From: Fimicolochytrium jonesii
Taxonomy: Eukaryota
Length of the DNA stretch: 64,000 nucleotides
Direction of reading: 5' to 3'
Assembly: GCF_025526975.1 (NCBI RefSeq)
Contig: NW_026515684.1
Coordinates: 310,001-374,000, forward strand
Below, piece after piece: positions 1-48,780 of this stretch. Each line of letters starts with the position of its first letter. The stretch's first letter is position 1. Both the position numbers and the translations under genes were made by a program. A model generated the notes under the pieces. That model was not told the origin of the DNA, ran no database searches, and saw only the letters and a program-made list of their open reading frames with translations.

Positions 1-2146
1 GCTTGTAACAACGCGCACCACCTATATATCCAGAGACAAGCATCAGTGAGTGACAACAATAAAACATGCGCATTGGAAAGACCGCACCTGTTGACAGCTT
101 GATCGTTCAGCCAGCTGTTGGGTTTGACAATCTTCTGAATGGTAGCGAGTTCGATGATCGACGACCCTGCCGGCATCCTCAGGTCTCCTCCTCTTTCCTT
201 TATGCCGCAACCAAGAGCCCACTGGCCCACCGGCATGCGTTTGCTGCTGATTACGCGTTCAAGGAAGGCGAGATGCTTTTCATCCACTTTTGGCCACGGC
301 TCGCCTTTCCACACTGCCGGCAGCCTGTTCCACCACGCTGCCGGTCCGGGAAACGTCGTTGGTAATTCGACAATCTCCGCATCATCTTCCGTTACTCCGC
401 AGTCGGCGTCCATATCAATCCCATAGTTACAACGTACTCCCCCACCAGCTTCCCCATCGATGCCAACTCCAGTGTCCTCACCAGCCCTGCCACTGGCTTC
501 GACACCACCGACTTTGACTTCCTCCAGTCCAATGTCCAAAGGAGTATCCCTGTCCGACCCCTCCTCCTCCGACCCCTCCTCCTCCGACCCCTCCTCCTCC
601 GCGGCTGCAGTGGGCTTGGCCCTCTTCTCGGGGGGCGCTTGCTCCGGCTCCTCCTCCTCTGCGCGCTTGCGCTTCCCAGCCTCAGCCTCCCCCGGCGCCT
701 TCTCCGCCGCTCTCTCTGCCGTCTTCTCCGCCACCCTCTCTGCCGCCTCCTCTTCCACCCCCTCCACACCCTCCATGGCGACCTTCACCGATGCCCCCTC
801 GCTGACCTCCCCTGCCGCCCCTTCGCTGACTGGGGGGCCAGAAAGCGCCTCGATCTGAGCTGCCGTGGGCCCTGCCCCCTCCCAGCTGCTCTTGGTCACA
901 CCGGGCACAGATGCCAGCGGTTCCCCGGGCCTTTCTTCCGCGAAAAGGTCGTCGAAGCTCACGTCCTCGCGCCGACGGAGCTGAATGCAGTCCCAGTACA
1001 GCGAGAAGCTTGCCACCTCCTCCTTGCTTGCCGTCCTCCCAAAGATGTGGCCATACGGCAAGTACGGCGGCCAGCCCACGACAAGGAGGGGGTTTGTCAG
1101 CGCGCGGATCTGCGGCCAAGGCGTGCGCCTGATGTCCCTGCTGGATGCCTTGTTGTACTTGTCCCGAAGTGCATCGCGGAGGCCCTCTCTGTTTTTCCAG
1201 ATGGGCACAATGGGCGCCAGGGGTTTGCCTGCACGGGGTGGGCGGAGCCAGAGACGACTTGGTTACGAGCGCTAGCGCGGCGGGTGACGTTAACGCGGGT
1301 CACGCACCTTCTTTTTCATCCCCATCTTTTTTAGCCCCGTGTTTTCTCTTCCCCCATTTTTCTCCCCCTCAACAAACAGGGAGCGCACGTAGGTGTCCAC
1401 AGCACGCCGGGCTGCGTGGGTGGTGTCGACAGGCTGCCCCATTAGGCCCCCCGCCACGATCCGCATTGTGTCGTCGCTGTCCATGACCAGGTAGCTGCGG
1501 CCTGCGTTCCGAGAGGATGCAACTATGAGTTGGAGGGGCTCGCCGGCCAGCCTGCAGATCTCGACCAAGCTCTGGGCAGCCATGATGAGCGCCCCCTCGG
1601 CTACAACAACGTCTGCGATGGTCCCCGATATGCTCCCCGCGTCGTCGCCGAGCGCCTTCCTGTCGTCGCCGTCCAGCTGGTCAACCAGCGCCCGCGCAAG
1701 GCTACGTTGTGCACTGTGGCCAAGCAAGTTGGCGGTTGCGGGCCTCGCCTCCGCACCGGCAGCCTCCCTCATCCGCCCCATGTCGACGTCGGCTGTTTTC
1801 TGGGCTTCCGCCATGTTCAATGACCTGAACCGACCAGCGGGGTTGCCCGCCCGTAGAAGTTGACCATTCTTGTCTTCTCTTGCTGAAGGAGGCGTTTGGC
1901 GGACTTTCCACTGCACTTCTTGGGTGCGGCGCTCGCCTCCTCCTCCCCGGCCCCCTCCTCCGCGTCGCCCTCCTCCTCCCCCTCCTCCTCCTCCCCCTCC
2001 TCCTCGTACTCGCTCCCCTCGTCGCCGATGGCAAGCAGCACGCTGGTGGCCATGTCCGCCAACGCCTCGTCGCTCTCACCGTCAAAGTTGGAGCTATCAG
2101 CGGCCCTATCGGCGGCCTCTGCCACCTTTGACGGGCGGGCCAGCAT
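1..2146 (-). CDS. Multi-exon hypothetical protein with long acidic region and start of a C-terminal Ulp1/C48-like SUMO protease domain; runs off the left window edge; probably transposon-associated
   Basis: The minus-strand frame antisense to the + ORFs 66..365 and 639..1334 is open from ~1260 to the window edge, so the track does not list it. Splicing a 66-nt GT..AG intron (87-22) gives ...IQKIVKPNSWLNDQAVNRWCALLQ, matching the Ulp1 WLNDxxIN motif. Upstream exons are ORFs 1290..1916 and 1817..2146; their junctions and the start are unresolved. Confidence 0.5.
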
Positions 2147-2676: not shown

Positions 2677-2761
2677 GCACACTCCGAGAATGATCAGCGC
2701 TGACGAGGTGAGTGGCCAGAGCACACTCCGAGAATGCTCAGCGCTGACGAGGTGAGTGGCC
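2677..2761. repeat. 44-bp tandem duplication (2 copies)
   Basis: gcacactccgagaatg(a/c)tcagcgctgacgaggtgagtggcc at 2677 and 2721. Confidence 0.9.
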
Positions 2762-2927
2762 GCTGTGCAGCCGTGGGCGTCTCCGCTGGGTGTTGACCGC
2801 CTGGGCTTGCGGCCCATGTTGAGCACGACCGCCGCTTGCGGGAGGTCGACCTGCATGGGCTGTGCTGCCTGGGCGCGCTTGCTTTACGCCGATCTCGCGG
2901 CCCTTGTTGAGCACGACCGCTCTCTGG

Positions 2928-3441
2928 ACTCCCGCAATCGCTTGAGGTGCAGCCTGGATTTGGGCACTCGCGCTGGCCCCATTCTACCAACCCACTCCCA
3001 CTCCCATGCCCACGCTGCCTGCTATTTATTTCACCCCAACTAACTCATGTACACTCCATTCCCCAGACAAATCACCATGAGAGTGTCAAAGCCGCGGCAA
3101 CGTTCCAAGAGCCGGCGCCTACACAGAGAATAGACGGGGCACGGTGCCCAGGACCGTTCCGGTTTAACGTGCGGGGGACGAATTTCTCCCCAAAATCCAT
3201 TGAGGGCTGACTAGTACAGCGTGGGGCGAAAATGGTTCCCCCGACGGCGTGGCGGACAATAGATGGAAGCAAAGCCCGTTAGGGTTGTTGACGCTCGGCC
3301 TTACAGCCTTCACGCTGCAGCGCGAAATCACACTGGGCTCTCCCCGCTCGCGGTTCGCTATCGCTCACATACCTCAAAGCGACATCAAAAGCGCAACGCG
3401 AGTGCCCAAATCCAGGCTGCCCCTCAAGCGATTGCGGAAGT
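2928..3441. repeat. Inverted-repeat/foldback structure with 45-bp outer arms and ~21-bp inner arms
   Basis: The reverse complement of 2928-2972 matches 3397-3441 with 2 mismatches. An imperfect inner pair lies at 3172-3192 / 3222-3243. Confidence 0.85.
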
Positions 3442-4490
3442 ACCGAGGGCCACCGGCACCGGCACCTCCAAAAAGCAATGGCAGAATGCTGCCCAGCAAA
3501 AGTCAAGCTAACAATCATGCCTGGCCATGCCGGCAGTGAATACCACGCCTGGCCGTGCCGGCAGTGGTCATAGCTCTTCTAGCTGCAGGGCAACAGTGCC
3601 ATTGCATTCTGTGGAAAAAAGTTTGGCAATTGCCGGAGGATCTTGGGCTGGGGAGAGGACTATGAAGAAAATGACCCGGGTGCTGTAGCCTGTGAGTCGC
3701 GGACGCGCCGACAGTGGACACTGACTTAATGTTGGGGGGGTCCCAGCTTTATGGACACTGGCTAGCTTGCGCTTATTGTGAGTGCAAAGAAGCGCCGAAA
3801 ACTGCGATGAGCGATGTTGGTGGTTTCCCCAGAGCCCCGTCGAGATGGAGCTGTGTGAAACGGGAGGAATAAAACAAAAAGGAGCATGAGGCAGAGCAAA
3901 AATGGTCGTGCATCGAGCTGTTTGAGAGCGGGTAAGGACTGGAGGATTGGTTGAGGCACATTTCGGTTGCTTTCTGTTGCGATACTTAGTTGTGCTGTTC
4001 AGTTAACACCCACGAAGCGCCGAGCGCGACAGTAGTTACCACGCCGCGCCTAGCGCGACAGGGGTCATAATCTGAACAAACAAAGAAGTTGTCTGGGAGT
4101 GGGAATTGAGCTTGCTACCTGCACATCTGCAAGGAGAGCAGTATTCAACTGTGCCAAAGCGCCAGTGTTGTCAGAATGCAATTACAGTAGTACCAGAAGG
4201 GTGTACTGTTACGGTACAGGTGGCCAAAAGAGCGTCCGAGAGAGCGTTCCATCACGTGGGTTTCATCACGTGAGCGTTGCGCAGGCTTTAATAAGTCTGA
4301 TGTCCACGAAGGCACCGACGAAAGATTAAGAGTATGCGAAAAGCCAAAACTAGAGCTGGAGGATATACTAAAAACTAAGTAAGAGAAAGTAAATCAAGAG
4401 AATCATATGACTAAAAAAAAGGGGTAACAGCCAAGCTCGGGCCCGTACGCCATCGCCCACGACGGCGTCAGCAATTCAAACGCGTCCTTC

Positions 4491-7515: not shown

Positions 7516-9380
7516 ATGACCCGGGACAAGCGCAAAAAGCGCAAAGACCACGCGACAAAAAAAGCCGTCTCGAAATCCCAAAAGGCCTCCAAACAAGCCT
7601 CCAAAGCAGAACGCAAGGACTCGCGCCACGCCTCCAAATTCGACGACGACGGCGACGAGGAGGACATTGAGATTCTGATCAAGCAGTTTCAGGAGGGGGA
7701 TAGGAGGATTGGGGTTGCCGAGGAGGTTGCATGTGAGCCGCCGAGTCCAAGGGCGAATGCGAGTTGGGTTGCTGCTGCAGGGAATGCGCCGTTTGTGTGG
7801 TTGTTTGGGGGCGAGCATTGTACGGGGAGGAAGGTGAAGGTTTACGGGGAGCTTTTTAAGTGAGTATGGGATTCGGGCGGAGCGAGTAGAAGGCGAGCGG
7901 CAGCGAGCCCCAATTGGGCGGGAAGCCCAGGAATGCTTGAGGTCCGGTCCGCAAGCGAAGCGAGCAGGGTAGCATTTAGGTGGCTGATGGTGACGTTCAA
8001 TGGTCTTTGACCGATCATTGATCCCGTCTTACCCACACCAGATACAGAATCGACAAAAAAGACTGGCGTCGCATCAACACCCCCGTCTCGCCACCCCCCC
8101 GCAGCGGGCACCAAACCGTCGTCCTCACCAACGGCAAGCTGCTCGTTTTCGGCGGCGAGTACACCTCGCCGTCGCAGAACCAGTTCCATCACTGGAAAGA
8201 TTGCTGGGTGTTTGATCCCAAGGAACTTAAATGGGAGCAGCTGGATATACCGACACCGAGCGCGAGGAGTGGGCATCGGATGACTGTTTGGAAGAATTTT
8301 GTTGTGAGTGATGCTTTTCGAGCCTACCCAGGAAATCCCTCGATTTCCCTGATTTCTCATCACCGACTCGATCATTATCACGCACAGGTCCTATTCGGCG
8401 GCTTCTACGACAACTACAAAACAACAAAATACCACGACGACCTCTGGCTGTTCGACACGACCGAGTACAAATGGTCCAAAGTCGAGTTTTCGTCCCTTGC
8501 TTCTAAGCCTGGGTAAGGGGGCCCATTCATTTGTTACCCACTTCATTCACAATCAACCGCCCTGTTCTTGATTAAGTTTTGTGATGTTCATAGACCACGC
8601 TCAGGCTTCCAATTCATAACCCACAACGACACAATCTACCTCTACGGCGGCTACTGCAAAAAACAAATCGACGGCGATCGCGAGAGCGGGCATGTCTATT
8701 CCGGTAAAACATTTCCCCTCCACCCTCCCCACCAACCCCCGCCCCCCCCCCCCCCCTAACCCTCCTCTCCCCTAGACATGTGGCTCCTCCAAATGTCCGC
8801 GGACCCCTCCCTCATCACATGGAGCCTGACAAAAAAAGCCGGCAAGCCGCCCCCGAAACGCGCCGGCTGCACAATGATCATGCATAAGAACCGCGGAATC
8901 CGTTTCGGAGGCGTGGAGGATAACGAAGACGACGAAGACGTGGTGTGCCGGAACGACATGTATGCGTTCGAGGTTGAGAAGGGGAGGTGGTTTGGCGTTA
9001 CCATCAAGAGCGGGAAGGCCAAGACCGATGACCCAGTAGCGGAGTTAGACCCAGCGGCAGAGACCCCCGCGGCGATAGACCCATCCCAGCCCCACCCCCG
9101 CTACAACGCGATGCTGGCAACCTACAAGTCCCAGCTGATACTCTACGGCGGGCTGTTTGAGGATAAGAAGTCGGAGCATACCTTGGATGATCTGTGGGTG
9201 GTGAATCTGGATAAAGGCGGGCCGTGGGAGGTGGTGCAGAGGGGTGGGTGGGAGAGGGGGGGTACTTCGATGGCGGCGCTGCGTGAGGCGAAGACGGGTG
9301 AGGAAACGAAGGAGGGTGGGGAAGAGGAGGAGAGTGGGAGTGATAGCGATAGCAGCGATAGCAGTAGCGATGAAGAGTAA
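7516..9380 (+). CDS. Kelch-repeat protein (KLHDC4/Kel3-like), multi-exon
   Basis: Lys-rich N-terminus, PSPRANAS, repeated FGG motifs, PSARSGHRM, RPRSGFQF, PHPRYNAML and an acidic tail; first intron 7860-8041. Confidence 0.88.
7860..8041 (+). repeat. Intron-resident GNA-hairpin repeat homologous to the GCIP intron element
   Basis: agccccaattgggcgggaagcccaggaatgcttga versus the reverse complement of ~14208-14241 (gcccaattgggccgtaggcccaggaatgcttga); an upstream 37-nt block is 28/37 identical. Confidence 0.75.
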
Positions 9381-9438
9381 GGATGTCGTGAAAATGTGGT
9401 TGTGAGCGGAATGTGGGTTTTTTGTACATAGAAACATA

Positions 9439-9740
9439 GGTAGCGTATCGCGAGACTGCCCCTACTCCAGGCTGCCTCAGGCGATTGCGGAAGTTGAGTC
9501 GAGAGAGCGTACCGCGAGACTGCCCCTACTCCAGGCTGCCTCAAGCGGTTGCGGAAGTCGAGTCGAGAAGGTAGCGAATCGCGAGGCTGCTCCTATTCCG
9601 AGCTGCCTCAAGCGGTTGCGGAAGTTGAGTCGAGAAGGTAGCGAATCGCGAGGCTGCTCCTATTCCGAGCTGCCTCAGGCGATTGCGCAAGTGGATAGCG
9701 TATCGCGAGGCTGCTCCTATTCCGAGCTGCCTCAGGCGAT
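9439..9740 (+). repeat. Five tandem ~57-67-bp hairpin-forming repeats at the Fanzor element left end
   Basis: Units start at ~9439, 9506, 9570, 9637 and 9694; consensus gtagcgaatcgcgaggctgctcctattccgagctgcctca(a/g)gcg(a/g)ttgcggaagttgagtcgagaag. Confidence 0.92.
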
Positions 9741-9958
9741 CGTGTCGTGAAGAGTGAAGTGAATCGCAGAATGTGGAGCGGCGACTGCGACGGCAACCGA
9801 ATTCGATCTGCAGTCTGAGAGGGAGTGTTGTAAACAACCTGTTTCAAGCCACAGCATCCGGGGGATAAGGGAAAGAGAGAGCTCGAGCCAAAATCAACCC
9901 CAGAAGCTACCCTCGCTGCCCAGCTACTGTAAGCTGCCCTGGAAGCTACCCCACATCC

Positions 9959-9974
9959 TTTACACGCGTGTAAA
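9959..9974. promoter_or_regulatory. Perfect 16-bp palindrome with an MCB-like ACGCGT core upstream of Fanzor
   Basis: TTTACACGCGTGTAAA, ~230 bp before the ATG at 10202. Confidence 0.4.
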
Positions 9975-10201
9975 AAACGTCCCCACTCTACTCCTTCCCA
10001 ACCCCCTTCCTTCCCAACGCAATTATTGTGAGCAGTAAGCATCCCCGTGTTCACCTTCAACCGCCACCAGGTAACAACCGCAATTCCTCACCGTCTTCAG
10101 CTCCATGACCACAGCACTGACGCGAGTTCTTTGACACACAGCTATCACGGCAATCACCTGCAACATGTCTCTCGACTGACTTAAGGCACAGCACAGTCAT
10201 C

Positions 10202-12894
10202 ATGTCTTCACACCAGGCGCTCCAGGGGCACCTGTGGTGTGGCATCTTTACTGGAGCAACCACACCACGGCGGAAGAGGAGGAAGGTTGCTCCGGTTACC
10301 CCGCGGTTGCCCATACGTCTGCCAACCGCCGCTGTGCAGACACCAGTGCAACCCCCGCGATTTGAGTTCCCATCGTCTGTCCAGCACCACTTGCCCCAAG
10401 CAATTGCAGACATGGTTGGCGAGAGTTCCGGCGACGAAGATGAAGATGGGCAGCAGGAGCAGCATCAGCGGCAAGGGCTTTCACCCGTCGAAAGGGGTCT
10501 GCAGCGTCCGTTGAACCTCCCCGCTCCCATCCCTTTCCGGTTTCCCAGCACACCGGGTGGATCCCTGGTGCTTGAACCCCCGCCTCCACCACCAGTTCAA
10601 CGACCCCGCCCGCAGACACATGCCAGCACAAAGGTTTCCCTTCACCGAATCCAAAATCACAATCAAGTCCAAAGGGAGCGCCTAACAACGTTCATCGCCG
10701 ATGTTCATGTCCTTGCGCGCCACACCACCTTCTTTATCAAGTACTACCTTGGTGAGTTTTTGAGGTACACTACACTGTATATTTCCCATAAAACAATGTC
10801 CTGACTGCTACATCTGCCCACCCCACCACAGCTGATCATCCTCTACACGATTTCCCGGACATCACCGACAAGCACATTAGTGTGATATTTGAGCTGCTAA
10901 ACAATCCGGGCTACAACGGCAATCCGGTCATCGTGCAAGAATTGCGTCCACGGGTTCAAGAGTACTGTAATGTTCACGGATTTGCCCCCATCCGCATGCG
11001 AAATAGCCAACAGACCGCAGCGTACACAGCTACGAGCATCTTCACCAACCTCAAAGTCAACGTACAGGAGCATTTTATGCAAATGTTTCTGCGCTATGTC
11101 AATGAAAGGCTTGGTTTGAAGCAAGTCGTACTGCATCTCCGGAGAGCGCAGCGGCGACACTATTATCGGCGTGTCCATCAATTTACAAAGTACGCAACGT
11201 TTGAAGAGTATCCAACCGAAGAGGAATTTGCGCGCCTCACACGAATTGAGCGGACCGTCCTCGACGAGTTATGGGCTCTGTTTCCTCCCCAGGATGAGCC
11301 GCTTGCGTACAGCCTTGCAGTGGACGCAATGGCATATTTAGGTGAGTTAGTATATTCCCCCCCCCCCCCCCGCGGTGCCCTCTTTTGTCTAATCATGGTC
11401 CGCACCTGCCTCATCACAGGTGCCTATTGTGAGCTCTCATGCCTCTATGAGCGCCGTGGAATGCGGCTGTTTTCCGCTATCCCGCTGCGCAAATCTCGAA
11501 TCCAGTCATCTGTTCGGATCGACACGCTGATCCTAGGCACTCATATCCTGGATGTTGGCCGACGTCCCACGGGGAAACTCACTGATGAACGCAAGCAGGA
11601 GCTGTGGGGGCAGTTTCTCAATGTGAATGTAAGTCTGTATCCTTCCGCTCTTATTTCAATCACCTTACTGAATGACGGATTATAGGACAAGGTCTTCAAA
11701 CATTGAAAGAAGCTTGGTCTCAAATTTGATGGGTCAATCAGCACAAACGGGTATTCCGTTACCATCCACTTCAAGAAGCCAGGGCTCAAGTATGGGCATC
11801 GGGCCCGGAAGCGCAGCAAGCCGCAAATGCGGGAAGAAGTCAAGCAGCTGTATTTTGAGCACCACATTGCGGAACTACGCGAGGCTCCAAACATCGTCTG
11901 CATTGATCCGGGCAAGCATGACCTCCTGTTCTGTCGAGACATCGAGAAGGAGCGCCCATTTCGGTACGTTCCAGTTGATTACTGCTTTTGACATTCCGTT
12001 GCCACATTCTCACAATGCACCACCCCGTACCAGATACACATCCACTCAACGGGCGGTAGAGACAAAGTCTCGGTTCTTTCGAAGAGACATGACAGAGTGA
12101 AAGATCAATGCCGGCGTCGCCGAGATGGAATCACATATTCCGTCGCAGAAGAGCATGAACATCGAGGCGTTCTCAGCGTTCATTGTGGATCACATACATG
12201 CAGGTATGATGTTCTACTTAATTTTGATTCTCAAATTTAATGATACATGGGCTGACATCCCATCCATATCCCAGATCCCGCCCTGGATGAGTTTTACCGG
12301 GATCAGATTCACGTGGCTCGCAGATTCAAGGCGTTCTCTGCGGCAAAAGTCTGAGAGCAAGCTCATCAAGAACATGTGACGCCTGTATGGAAAGCATTTT
12401 GTGGTCATCTTGGGTGATTGGAGCGACGCTGGGAAGACCATGTGCTTTCAGGAGTCATCAAAGACCAAGGGGTGAGTGACCATCATTTGTGGTACCTACT
12501 ATGTATTTTAATATGCCAACTCATCATGGAAATCAGATTCCGCACCCTCTTTGCAAGAAACAGCATTCCATGCTACTTGCTAGATGAGTATCGAACGTCT
12601 TCCGTGTGCCCAGACTGCCACGGGTGTGTGAAGAAAAACATCGGACGCCGGCTGTCACCTCGGCCGTGGCAAGCTCGAAAGGGAAGAATGGAATACGTCC
12701 ATGGATTGGTGGGTTGCCCCAACCCCGAATGTATCAACCAAGACTGGACGCCGTTTGAGATTCCTGGAAGACAACCACTACGACTACGGATGAAAGTGCA
12801 CAATCGGGACGTCCTAAGCACCAAGAATTTCCTCTCGATTGTGCGTTCGGTGGTGCTTGGCAATGGCCGCAGACCAGACGCATTCTCCCGGTAG
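10202..12894 (+). pseudogene. Fanzor: Fanzor (TnpB-like RuvC RNA-guided endonuclease, Fanzor1-like), 7 exons, disrupted
   Basis: Introns 10752-10831, 11342-11419, 11629-11685, 11964-12033, 12204-12274 and 12472-12536, all GT..AG and phase-compatible. Motifs FSAIPLR..RIDT, FDGSISTNGYSV, RuvC-I IVCIDPG (D 11905), ILGDWS, RuvC-II LLDEYRTS (E 12586), CPDC..VHGLVGCPNPEC zinc finger, RuvC-III NRD (D 12808) and terminal RPDAFSR. TGA stops at 11704, 12098 and 12377; frameshift at ~12340. Confidence 0.92.
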
Positions 12895-13006
12895 TCTAGA
12901 GTTTTCACCCCATCCCATTTTCCGTGGTGGTTATCTGCCATCCACATCATTGTACCTCTGCCTGAGGCGTCGCCGATGAGGGCAACTTGTAGAAACAAAA
13001 TAGATG
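12895..13006 (+). ncRNA. Candidate Fanzor omegaRNA (scaffold to ~12991, guide from right flank)
   Basis: Lies between the Fanzor stop and the inferred right end; stem-loops at 12924-12945 and 12955-12967. Assignment is by analogy with TnpB/Fanzor loci only. Confidence 0.5.
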
Positions 13007-13049
13007 GTAATGCGATATATGGGTCGAGGCGGTGGGGTCGCTTCTACGT

Positions 13050-14574
13050 TCACCGCGCACTATCCCGCTCCAGGATCCTCTCCAACACCCTCCCGACCTG
13101 CGCGCCACACGTCTCGAACCAACTTAACGTCTTCTCATCCTCCACAAGCGTCTTTACCGCCTCCATGACACTCGCACAGGTCTGTGCGAGCGCAGAGGCG
13201 GCCGCGGCGACTTCGCTGGCGTGGAGGGGCGGCTCGATGAGGAGGGCGAGGTCGTCGACGCGGTGGGAGGTTTCAAGGGAGACGCGGGCGAGGGTGTCTT
13301 GGATGAGGGTGCGTTCGGTGAGGAGGGCTTCTGATTCTGTTCTTGTCGTTGTTGTTGGTGGGGTTTTGGATGCGGATGGTTGTTCCTCGTTTTGCACTGC
13401 CACGATGACTTTCTTGAGCAGGAGTTTTGTGGCCTTCATGATGACCAGACATTGGTTGGCGAGTTCCTTTTCCGAGGGTGTGAACTGCCTGCCGCCTTCA
13501 TCCTCAGCATCCCCGTCGGCATCATCCCCCTCGTCCTCGCCCATGAGGTCGCCCCACCCCCCAGCGCCCCCACCACCACCACCATTCTCAATCGTCCCCT
13601 CAACCTCCTCAATCGCATCCTCAACAAGCCCCAATCGATCCCTGACTCGCCTCGCAACCGCCTCCCCATTCCTAAACGCCATCCCCTCAACAACCTCACA
13701 CGTCTTCCACACCAACCCCGTCGAACTCGCATATCCGATGCTGTTGCTCCCTGTTTTCAACTCCCGCGGCGTCGTTAGGAAGTTGTTAGCGAGGGAGGCG
13801 ACGTCAGTGAAGAGTAAAGAGACGGTGGAGCGGATCTCGTCTTGGAGGACGGACCCGAGGGACCCGGGGACGGAGTCGATCAGAGCCGAGAGGTGGAGCA
13901 GGCATTTGTGGATTTCGGACGTGACTTTGGGGGTGTCACGCGATTTTTCGGGGGCTATCAGGGAGAGCTACGGGGAGGAGAGGAGGGTGTGTGGGTGAGC
14001 GATCGGGTGTGTAGGGACGACGGATGATGGAAACCTTCATCAACAATCATCAACCCATCAACTCATCAACTCATCAACTATCAACCATCAACCCATAAAC
14101 AACCATCGACCATCAGCATGGAGCGGATGGTTGAACGATACCCTGCACGCTCCGCGACGTTGGACTGGTGTGTGATCCGCAATCCTGCGCCTTCGGCCTC
14201 GTCGCACTCAAGCATTCCTGGGCCTACGGCCCAATTGGGCTTACGGCCAAGTTGGGCTCACTATCGTTGGCCTTCTCCTCACTTCGCTCGGGACCCTCAA
14301 GCATCCCTCGCCTCGCTCGGCCCTCCCTCTCACTCGCCTTCCCTCCCCCAATCCATTTCACACCCCTCACCTTGGTGGCATTATGACTCAGCAACTTCAC
14401 CGTATTCTTCGTCTCCGTCTCAAACCATCTCTGGTCAAACTCCTTCAGCGGCAGTCCACTCGTCGTGTCCCTCTTCTGCAGTTCCTGGGATAGGTGTAAG
14501 GCGAGGTCTATGAGGGTTGCGAGGTCCACGTCGAAGTTGGGGGCGGGAGTGGACGGGGTTGGGGGGGTTGTCAT
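13050..14574 (-). CDS. GCIP / cyclin-D1-binding protein 1-like, 2 exons
   Basis: LLSHNATK|LSL across intron 14370-13968, TGLVWKTCE, LVEDAIEEVE, VDDLALLIEPP. Confidence 0.75.
13968..14370 (-). repeat. Long intron with GNA-hairpin element and (CATCAAC)n-like simple repeat
   Basis: Sense strand has gccgtaggc, gccgaaggc, gcggagc and gagcgaagtgag; catcaac repeats at ~14038-14115. Confidence 0.75.
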
Positions 14575-42282: not shown

Positions 42283-42676
42283 TGAACTCCGCGGGCACAA
42301 ACTCCGCTCTTATTGCAACTTTCCTACACCGTGACTGTACATTACAGTCTACAGTACAATGAGAAAAAAGCCGCCAAAATCCACAGTAGAGACACTGATG
42401 GCAATAAACATGCCGTTTCGTTCATGCCTCAGAATGCAGCGGCGTGACTCTACATACAGGAAAGGGACGTCAAAACTATGTGTGATGCATGTCAGAATCG
42501 AAACCTCCGAAAATGAAGGCATGGCCATGAGGACGCCGTTGCATTCTAAGTTATGAACGAAACGGCATGTTCATTGCCATTAGTGTCTCTACTGTGGATT
42601 TTGGCGGCTTTTTTCTGTGCACGTCCTCCGCACCAAAAGACCTTACTGAGAGCGAGTTCATGACCCGCGGAGTTCA
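42283..42676. mobile_element. Nested foldback/MITE-like element
   Basis: 84-bp arms 42362-42445 / 42533-42616 (78/84 identical); outer arms 42283-42310 / 42649-42676 (tgaactccgcggg..aactc(c)gctct). Confidence 0.8.
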
Positions 42677-47989: not shown

Positions 47990-48780
47990 CAATCTGGACC
48001 AAGAGACATCGCGACGACCTCCTCCGTGAGGGCGAACGGCTCTTCAAATGCCCGACCCAACACCGGTTTACAAGCCTAACACACTGTGGTATGTTCATCC
48101 ACATCTCCTGGTTTGAGAGGTGTTTGGTGACCGAGGAAATCCAGCACAATCGATCCAAAACACTTGCGCGTACTGTACGTAGCTACATCCGTCTGGACCA
48201 ATATAAGCACGAACGTGAAAATGCATCTCGTCGACCATATGCGGTTATACATTCACTGGCCACTAGCCGACAAGAAGTTGAAGATGATTCAAAGCACTCG
48301 GTACACATCGTCGGCGACGCGCTTGAATGTGAAGACGACGGTGGACTGGCGGAGGGAGGGAGCGATATACAGTGGAGGAAGGGAGCGATACAGTGGTCTG
48401 CGCGAGATACCGACTCAGCGCTTCTATCAGTGTACTCGCAGGTTGGGAGCCACTGTCACCATTTCACTCGGCGCTCTTGCTGTTTGCCGCCGCCGCCGCC
48501 ATGTGCTCCCGGCTCACAGGCCCGGTAACGTTTCACCAACACCACCATCCCACCATCCCACATCCAACCAATCATCCAATAAGGCACTGCGTCTAGTAGG
48601 GGATCAACAACTCACTCGGCGAGACGGAGGAGGACCTGGTCGACGCTCGGCGCTCTCCACAGTCCGATCTGCGGAACGCCTCAACCCCGTCCGCCGTGCT
48701 CACACCTCGGACCTATCTCACAATTAAGCAGTCTGGCCTCATCGCTATTGTAGCGGACGAACGCTGCCGTAGGGGGAGCT
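47990..48780 (+). pseudogene. Degenerate Fanzor-like fragment (N-terminal half only)
   Basis: 48176-48265 translates YVATSVWTNISTNVKMHLVDHMRLYIHWPL, 11/30 identical without gaps to YTATSIFTNLKVNVQEHFMQMFLRYVNERL (11023-11112); outer bounds approximate. Confidence 0.55.

What the first reader, a model, noticed from the sequence alone, without database searches (positions are those of the whole stretch)
12895..13006. Candidate omegaRNA and guide; reconstructed empty site places CATA next to the guide match
Seen: 95 nt separate the stop from the inferred right end, with stem-loops at 12924-12945 and 12955-12967. Removing the element and one TAGAAACA copy gives TTTGTA-CATA-GAAACAAAATAGATGG. Established: TnpB/Fanzor scaffolds end at the transposon right end and take the guide from flanking DNA, and CATA is the reported TAM of the chytrid Spizellomyces Fanzor1. 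Inference: a scaffold ending ..CTTGTA with guide GAAACAAAATAGATG would target the empty allele. It would match only 6 nt after CATA in the occupied allele, which fits homing logic.
Basis: partly seen in the sequence, partly recalled or inferred. Interest (0 to 1): 0.8.

Follow-up and report, generated by a model that had tools for sequence, protein, structure and literature searches.

The report
Chytrid Fanzor guide-RNA and CATA site
Behind a broken copy of a many-copy fungal transposon gene for an RNA-guided DNA cutter (Fanzor) lies a 75-base stretch laid out like the known Spizellomyces guide-RNA scaffold, which would likely steer intact sister copies to cut the transposon-free version of this spot; it is a new member of a known system.

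Summary
The gene at 10202-12894 is a six-intron Fanzor1 closely related to SpuFz1 (an intact paralog scores E 5.5e-148), one of up to 60 paralogous gene models. This copy is broken by stops and a frameshift. The scaffold starts at about 12917, not 12895. Numbered from there, 12917-12991 is 75 nt like SpuFz1, with U5-C6-C7, a 7-bp stem-loop 1 and a 4-bp stem-2 base closing on the terminal UA; five pairs change on both sides (by eye against the published RNA). A strict descriptor matched 1 of 11 motif sites in the window and 0 of 20,000 shuffles. A metagenome relative has a 76-nt version ending in the same TTGTA. The 8-nt duplication preceded by CA is rare by chance (3 of 3563 sites, including this one). 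Against: stem 2 is 5.5 kcal/mol above the minimum fold, there are no significant terminal inverted repeats, TAM contact N133 is alanine, and no other copy or RNA data could be read. The left end is ambiguous because CATA occurs twice. Verdict: new member of a known kind.

The parts
9427..9430 (+). Outer CATA, the candidate TAM; it abuts the guide match in the reconstructed empty site
   Evidence: CATA is the SpuFz1 TAM (PMC10432273)
9429..9436 (+). Left copy of the 8-nt direct repeat (TA plus the first 6 guide nt)
   Evidence: 3 of 3563 TA sites have such a repeat preceded by CA
9435..9438 (+). Inner CATA immediately before the first repeat unit; alternative left junction (element starting at 9439 with a TA duplication)
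   Evidence: the only two CATA in 9381-10201 are at 9427 and 9435
9438..9760 (+). Array of about five 57-67-nt tandem units, inferred to be the element's left subterminal region
   Evidence: period 67, 4.7 copies, 87% matches; membership in the element is inferred from position only
10202..12894 (+). Fanzor1 gene with six GT-AG introns (10752-10831, 11342-11419, 11629-11685, 11964-12033, 12204-12274, 12472-12536); broken by stops at 11704, 12098 and 12377 and a frameshift near 12340-12350
   Evidence: paralog P0023 against SpuFz1
12895..12916 (+). [quoted passage not shown]
   Evidence: register with SpuFz1
12917..12991 (+). Predicted 75-nt omegaRNA scaffold of the SpuFz1 type, ending in the duplicated TA
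   Evidence: strict descriptor: 1 of 11 motif sites, 0 of 20,000 shuffles; L003 counterpart
12924..12945 (+). Stem-loop 1: 7 bp (8 with one extra U-G) and one bulge
   Evidence: pair probabilities 0.87-0.98
12951..12991 (+). Predicted stem-2 region; base pairs 12951-12954 with 12988-12991, as SpuFz1 nt 35-38 with 72-75
   Evidence: 4 pairs; one search shows it is thermodynamically weak in this copy
12955..12967 (+).
12990..12997 (+). Right copy of the 8-nt direct repeat
12992..13006 (+). Predicted 15-nt guide taken from flanking host DNA
   Evidence: inferred from SpuFz1 (14-15-nt extension)
8778..9380 (+). Host Kelch-repeat gene, last exon (left neighbour)
13050..13760 (-). Host GCIP/CCNDBP1-like gene (right neighbour, convergent); the empty spacer between the two stops would be 108 nt

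Best explanation
This is the right end of a decayed copy of a multi-copy, intron-bearing chytrid Fanzor1 element, where 12917-12991 is predicted to be a 75-nt SpuFz1-type omegaRNA scaffold and 12992-13006 its flank-derived guide, which would likely direct intact Fanzor made by sister copies to cut the element-free site next to CATA. Shown: the gene's identity, its lesions, the duplication, the CATA position and the in-register RNA features. [quoted passage not shown] The occupied locus would escape because only 6 nt match after the outer CATA and none after the inner one. For the extra duplicated bases on the left I lean, weakly (about 0.35 within this explanation), to a repair scar on an element whose normal junction is CA-TA, with the left end at 9439.
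For: Protein: P0023 against SpuFz1 chain 8gkh_P E 5.5e-148; the model's top four Foldseek hits are SpuFz1, target TM 0.82-0.86, about 42% identity; D433, E592, D666 and the zinc-finger cysteines are kept. Family: 60 of 222 held proteins align to P0022 at 70% identity or more, on 31 distinct contig lengths counted by hand. RNA: with 12917 as nt 1 the length is 75; U5-C6-C7 is present; stem-loop 1 has 7 bp; loop positions 13-19 match SpuFz1 at 6 of 7; G21 can pair with C6; U35-A75 and G36-U74 are identical. Five pairs change on both sides (three in stem-loop 1, two in stem 2), judged by eye against PMC10432273 supplementary file 5 and section 10, with the window pairs checked. Controls: strict descriptor 1 of 11 motif sites and 0 of 20,000 shuffles; loose descriptor 5 of 601 sites and 189 of 20,000 shuffles; of 36 TTTTCC sites only this one has TTGTA ending at nt 74-77. 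Relative L003 (41% protein identity) has the same layout 13 nt after its stop, 76 nt long, ending in TTGTA. Duplication preceded by CA: 3 of 3563. TAM contacts Q129, Q130 and Y345 are kept, and R291 is kept in the window copy and in 10 of 20 scored paralogs. SpuFz1 had minimal activity with a 10-nt guide, so a 6-nt match should be inert.
Against: No other genomic copy could be read, so the conservation boundary was not tested in the family itself. The SpuFz1-type stem 2 is 5.5 kcal/mol above the minimum fold with pair probability about 0, and a rival stem ending at nt 69 is only 2.3 above. The whole RNA is not more stable than shuffles (19 of 200). The descriptor tolerances were set after I had seen the sequence, and L003 passes only the loose one. 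N133, which makes TAM contacts in SpuFz1, is alanine in the three family proteins aligned and in the window; the R96 loop is shortened; R291 is H, Q or C in 10 of 20 paralogs. No significant terminal inverted repeat was found. L003 shows no duplication longer than 5 nt in the 1.2 kb searched. This copy makes no intact protein. Homing by Fanzor is a proposal in the papers read, not a demonstrated fact.
Confidence: 0.78

Rival explanations
1. Same RNA and TAM, but the element is moved by a transposase that always makes an 8-bp target duplication (hAT-like). It runs 9437-12989, so 6 nt of the duplication become the guide seed in every copy.
For: The repeat is exactly 8 nt. Read inward, the two ends agree at 5 of the first 9 bases. 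Fanzor1 clades were most often associated with hAT (PMC10530073). The 8-bp duplication and the Y-A-R start as hAT traits are recalled, not taken from a call.
Against: The best of 16 end-anchored tests was reached by 66 of 2000 random sequences, which is not significant after that many tests. The inner CATA would be a coincidence. In solved Fanzor structures the 3' duplication lies inside the scaffold, not the guide (PMC13565253). L003 shows no 8-nt duplication. No transposase gene was found between the ends.
Confidence: 0.27
2. An ordinary TA-duplicating insertion (element 9439-12989) landed at the second unit of an 8-nt tandem repeat that was already in the host DNA; the longer duplication says nothing about mechanism.
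For: It gives the canonical CA-TA-element-TA layout of SPu-1, and the first repeat unit starts at this point. An ACA word recurs 8 nt apart in the empty site, so slippage could have made the repeat.
Against: It needs a rare pre-existing tandem duplication exactly at the target, and it gives the same final sequence as a repair scar, so one locus cannot separate them.
Confidence: 0.22
3. The locus was an omegaRNA ancestrally, but this copy's RNA is now dead along with its gene.
For: The gene has three stops and a frameshift and mild CpG loss (observed/expected 0.87 against 0.97 for the window); stem 2 folds poorly.
Against: Stem-loop 1 is intact (pair probabilities 0.87-0.98). Protein-less ghost loci of S. 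punctatus supply working scaffolds, and the distal stem 2 is dispensable.
Confidence: 0.4
4. The scaffold ends elsewhere (for example at 12985, where a rival stem closes), or the TAM has drifted from CATA, and the CATA junction is coincidental.
For: The rival stem 34-37 with 66-69 is more stable than the SpuFz1-type stem (-19.7 against -16.5 kcal/mol); N133 is alanine and R291 varies.
Against: The 75-nt register, the two double-sided changes at the stem-2 base, the shared TTGTA end in L003 and the duplication starting at exactly this TA all point to 12991.
Confidence: 0.1

Closest known systems
SpuFz1 and the SPu-1 element of Spizellomyces punctatus (PMC10432273, PMC3627910; PDB 8GKH, 9CEU-9CEZ)
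   Same: About 42% protein identity and the same fold; 75-nt scaffold with U5-C6-C7, a 7-bp stem-loop 1 and stem 2 closing on the duplicated TA; CA-TA upstream of the left end; many copies; no transposase inside the element.
   Different: Six introns against a single ORF; a longer, low-confidence N-terminal extension; no 30-33-bp terminal inverted repeat; a 67-nt tandem array at the left; about 3.55 kb against 2.1 kb; N133 is alanine and N385 glycine; an 8-nt rather than 2-nt duplication at this locus; a scaffold sequence diverged beyond the 5' motif and loop.
S. punctatus ghost loci (omegaRNA without Fanzor ORF)
   Same: A locus that can supply RNA but not protein, to be used in trans.
   Different: Here the ORF is present but broken, not deleted.
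CRe-1/2/3 Fanzor1-bearing Helitron2 elements of Chlamydomonas (PMC3627910)
   Same: Intron-containing Fanzor1 without ordinary terminal inverted repeats; 7-19-bp duplications next to a fixed target word in 10-70% of insertions, almost absent from related Helitrons that lack Fanzor.
   Different: Different host and target word; no asymmetric terminal repeats or 5' hairpin of the Helitron2 type were evident here; only one locus was seen, so variable length is untested.
Gaertneriomyces sp. protein P0057 and metagenome locus L003/L004
   Same: P0057 is the sister of this family in a quick tree (SH-aLRT 100). L003 has an intron-interrupted Fanzor1 and a 76-nt scaffold-like end.
   Different: Neither is characterised; P0057's DNA could not be read; L003 groups with the Spizellomyces side of the tree (support 84).

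Membership tests
Fanzor1 | RuvC D-E-D triad with the glutamate shortly before a C4 zinc finger | tested here: met
   D433, E592, D666 and C599, C602, C635, C640 in P0023; the same motifs read in the window
Fanzor1 | Fanzor1 fold with enlarged REC region | tested here: met
   model pLDDT 82.7; top Foldseek hits SpuFz1, then PpFz1 and GtFz1; tested on paralog P0023
Fanzor1 | Intact reading frame at this locus | tested here: not met
   stops at 11704, 12098, 12377 and a frameshift; P0022 and P0023 look full-length
Fanzor1 | Conserved 3' non-coding block across genomic copies, ending at the right end | not testable with these tools
   no genome held; indirect attempts found nothing
Fanzor1 | omegaRNA expressed and bound; RNA-guided cleavage next to a TAM | not testable with these tools
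   needs small-RNA sequencing, pull-down and a TAM screen
SpuFz1-type omegaRNA | U5-C6-C7 followed by a 7-bp stem-loop 1 | tested here: met
SpuFz1-type omegaRNA | 75-nt scaffold whose last two bases are the duplicated TA | tested here: met
   12917-12991
SpuFz1-type omegaRNA | Stem 2 opening at nt 35 and closing on nt 75 | tested here: inconclusive
   4 in-register pairs, two of them G-U, but pair probability about 0 in the free fold
SPu-1 element | 30-33-bp terminal inverted repeats | tested here: not met
   local scores 16-23 against a background reaching 31; best of 16 anchored tests 66 of 2000
SPu-1 element | CA plus TA duplication at the junctions | tested here: met
   CATA at 9427 and 9435, TA at 12990; one locus only
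SPu-1 element | Single intronless ORF | tested here: not met
   six introns
SPu-1 element | CATA-reading residues R96, Q129, Q130, N133, R291, Y345 | tested here: inconclusive
   Q, Q, R and Y kept in the window copy; N133 is A; R96 loop shortened
hAT-type non-autonomous element | 8-bp target duplication in all copies and short terminal inverted repeats (recalled) | tested here: inconclusive
   8 nt at one locus; ends agree at 5 of 9, not significant
Helitron / Helitron2 (CRe type) | Variable 7-19-bp duplications, asymmetric terminal repeats, 3' CTRR or CTTG with a subterminal hairpin | tested here: inconclusive
   the right end reads CTTG as in HELPO2 and 8 nt is within range, but no convincing asymmetric repeat or hairpin was found

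The most novel reading that the evidence does not exclude
The duplicated TA plus 6 guide bases is a fossil of Fanzor-initiated repair: Fanzor cut the empty site, the element was copied back from its right end, and the new strand rejoined on a 3-nt ACA microhomology 8 nt too far along. If other copies of this roughly 60-member family carry variable duplications that always start at the TAM/guide border, the genome would hold a countable record of Fanzor homing in a eukaryote, in an element that has lost the SPu-1 terminal repeats and may borrow its left end from another transposon family.
Probability: 0.25. Interest if true: 0.75.

Novelty: new member of a known kind. Interest (0 to 1): 0.47.

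Why it matters
SpuFz1 is the best-studied eukaryotic RNA-guided nuclease. This family is a diverged relative with dozens of copies, so it offers natural covariation for the scaffold, a test of whether CATA can be read without N133, and possibly a new compact editor from an intact paralog. The copies' junctions would also test an open question, whether Fanzor cutting actually restores or spreads its element, by counting duplications that begin at the guide border. The RNA and TAM logic themselves are already known.

Tried and rejected
No genome is held. No sequencing run was listed for 9300-13300, which is no evidence either way. Exact DNA patterns from the scaffold found nothing in metagenome contigs or viral contigs, nor did a left-repeat pattern in viral contigs. 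Protein-based locus scans of viral contigs gave 0 of 1 and 0 of 25 confirmed stretches; the metagenome scan gave 5 of 116, of which only L003 and L004 (one locus) reach past the stop. Searching with the antisense ORF over the right end, to read a conservation boundary in protein space, gave 0 of 8 candidates. None of the 47 related gene models among the 50 proteins mapped to 12895-13000 or 9430-10200. Rfam gave no relevant match. An automatic alignment of the window and L003 ends fell out of register and was not used, so no covariance model was built. A terminal inverted repeat was rejected as not significant. Three AAGYTRCCC words at 9905-9952 as an inner left end were set aside: no CATA lies there and the score was at background. 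The bacterial promoter scan was irrelevant. The upstream ORF 3-1262 had no Pfam, PDB or Atlas hit. The careful tree did not finish; the quick tree on 27 rows is cited. Earlier findings of the scan: nothing returned.

Full report
What is there. The stop at 12892-12894 ends a gene that begins at 10202 and has six GT-AG introns. Its last exon found 13 clusters at 70-95% identity, all named Fimicolochytrium jonesii by their sources. Model P0052 appears to be this locus, since it reads like the window and ends at the same frameshift stop. Cluster look-ups and two further searches raised the set to 60 of 222 held proteins at 70% identity or more to P0022. Some are fragments of one locus and five are unnamed, so 60 is an upper count of models; they lie on 31 distinct contig lengths (my hand count). 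Paralog P0023 matches SpuFz1 at E 5.5e-148, its predicted model has SpuFz1 as the top four structural hits, and the catalytic triad and zinc finger are kept. The window's own copy has stops at 11704, 12098 and 12377 and a frameshift near 12340-12350. The element sits between the convergent 3' ends of a Kelch gene and a GCIP-like gene, which would be 108 nt apart without it.

The 95 nt, both hairpins, the repeated 8-mer, the CATA junction and the 6-nt match are all as described. The first hairpin beats 198 of 200 shuffles. The second has only 4 bp (11 of 200 as good), and the region as a whole folds no better than chance (30 of 200). The duplication is hard to get by chance: 17 of 3563 TA sites have one of at least 8 nt in the equivalent upstream block, and 3, this one included, have CA before it.

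The RNA. SpuFz1's scaffold is 75 nt, with U5-C6-C7, a 7-bp stem-loop 1, a C6-G20 pair, a short linker and a stem 2 whose distal part (nt 40-70) is dispensable (PMC10432273 section 10; PMC11423790 passages; sequence in supplementary file 5). Taking 12917 as nt 1, the window has U5-C6-C7, seven pairs from G8-C29 to G14-C22, loop positions 13-19 identical at 6 of 7, a G21 available for C6, and TA ending at nt 75 = 12991. By eye against the published RNA, three stem-1 pairs change on both sides (A-U to U-A, C-G to G-C, C-G to U-A). At the stem-2 base U35-A75 and G36-U74 are identical, while 37-73 and 38-72 change on both sides. A strict descriptor matched only this site among 11 motif sites in the window and 0 of 20,000 shuffles of the 155-nt spacer; a loose one matched 5 of 601 sites and 189 of 20,000 shuffles. 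I set the tolerances after seeing the sequence, so these are optimistic. Independently, metagenome locus L003 (L004 is the same locus; 41% protein identity) has the same 5' word 13 nt after its stop, a 5-bp first hairpin and TTGTA ending at nt 76; it passes the loose descriptor only.

Against. Either the protein enforces the fold or this copy's RNA has decayed. Of the TAM contacts, Q129, Q130 and Y345 are kept and R291 is kept here and in 10 of 20 scored paralogs, but N133 is alanine and the R96 loop is short. CATA therefore rests on the junction and on kinship, not on full residue conservation. Unlike SPu-1, with its 30-33-bp inverted repeats, no significant terminal repeat links the two ends. 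No other copy and no RNA data could be read.

The left junction. CATA occurs twice, at 9427 and 9435, the only two in the 820 nt before the gene, and the 67-nt array starts at 9438. Three histories give this sequence: a fixed 8-bp duplication by a hAT-like enzyme (element from 9437); a TA duplication inside a pre-existing tandem repeat (element from 9439); or a repair scar, in which copying from the right end rejoined on the ACA that recurs 8 nt apart. All three leave CATA beside the same guide. I lean to the scar because the inner CATA is then expected, because solved Fanzors keep the 3' duplication inside the scaffold (PMC13565253 section 20), and because Fanzor-bearing Chlamydomonas Helitrons carry variable 7-19-bp duplications that Fanzor-less relatives almost lack (PMC3627910 passages). 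One locus cannot decide this.

Mechanism. Inferred from SpuFz1: a transcript through the right end yields a roughly 90-nt RNA, intact paralogs load it, and the complex cuts 16-21 nt from CATA in the element-free site. A 6-nt match should be inert, since SpuFz1 had minimal activity with a 10-nt guide. Homing by Fanzor is proposed but not shown in the papers read.

Novelty and literature seen. A search for Fanzor and Fimicolochytrium listed one paper holding both words, where Fanzor appears only in a reference; the 15 listed papers naming the genus are on other topics by title and abstract start. The genus was absent from the searchable supplements of PMC10432273 (one scanned PDF and one oversized PDF not read). 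The blank in the supplements of PMC10530073 is uninformative, because Spizellomyces was absent too. Unread tables that list accessions only could include this family. I also read passages of 10.1101/2023.08.09.552727, PMC10530073, PMC13434818 and PMC4289320, part 1 of supplementary file 8 and search hits in file 6 of PMC10432273, and search hits in the supplements of PMC3627910. Introns in Fanzors are known. This works like SpuFz1, is a Fanzor1 locus, and is not an SPu-1 element in the strict sense (no inverted repeats, six introns). Verdict: real, new member of a known kind, interest 0.47.

Noticed in passing
window 2919-2975 (-) and 3394-3450 (+): An inverted pair (57 nt, 89%) carries the same unit as the 9438-9760 array (profile E 4e-6 and 2e-7). 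The N-terminus of another paralog's gene model, P0068, matches the adjacent 2750-2905 (-), hinting that some Fanzor copies share upstream DNA with another element; the model may merely join neighbours.
   Followed up: partly
window 3-1262 (-): An open frame ending in a WLNDQAVN motif that recalls Ulp1 proteases carried by some DNA transposons (recalled, not from a call); no Pfam, PDB or Atlas hit.
   Followed up: partly
window 10393-10412: A degenerate copy of the repeat core lies inside the Fanzor N-terminal extension; both read LPQAIA in one frame with mostly third-position differences. Unexplained.
   Followed up: partly
window 48176-48478 (+): Weak match to the Fanzor REC helix region (25-27% identity, E 0.001-0.003 within the window); possibly an old Fanzor remnant.
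   Followed up: partly
protein P0067: A gene model joins a tyrosine-recombinase-like part (PF00589, E 5.6e-4, below cut-off) to a Fanzor fragment; a nested insertion or a recombinase-linked copy.
   Followed up: no
L003 3639-3642, 3695-5930, 5944-6019: An intron-interrupted Fanzor1 with a 76-nt scaffold-like end; the only CATA in 3200-3700 lies about 55 nt before the start codon, after a T-rich TA context like the window's; no inverted repeat or long duplication seen.
   Followed up: partly
window 9905-9952: Three AAGYTRCCC words, with one inverted copy near the right end (about 12980-12988); not above background in the alignment test.
   Followed up: partly
window 42362-42616: A 255-nt imperfect palindrome (74%), possibly a small inverted-repeat element.
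   Followed up: no
window 7909-7941 and 14207-14239: A 33-nt dispersed repeat in inverted orientation, 91% alike.
   Followed up: no
paralog proteins: The residue equivalent to TAM contact R291 is R in 10, H in 6, Q in 3 and C in 1 of 20 scored paralogs; decay or TAM drift within one genome.
   Followed up: partly
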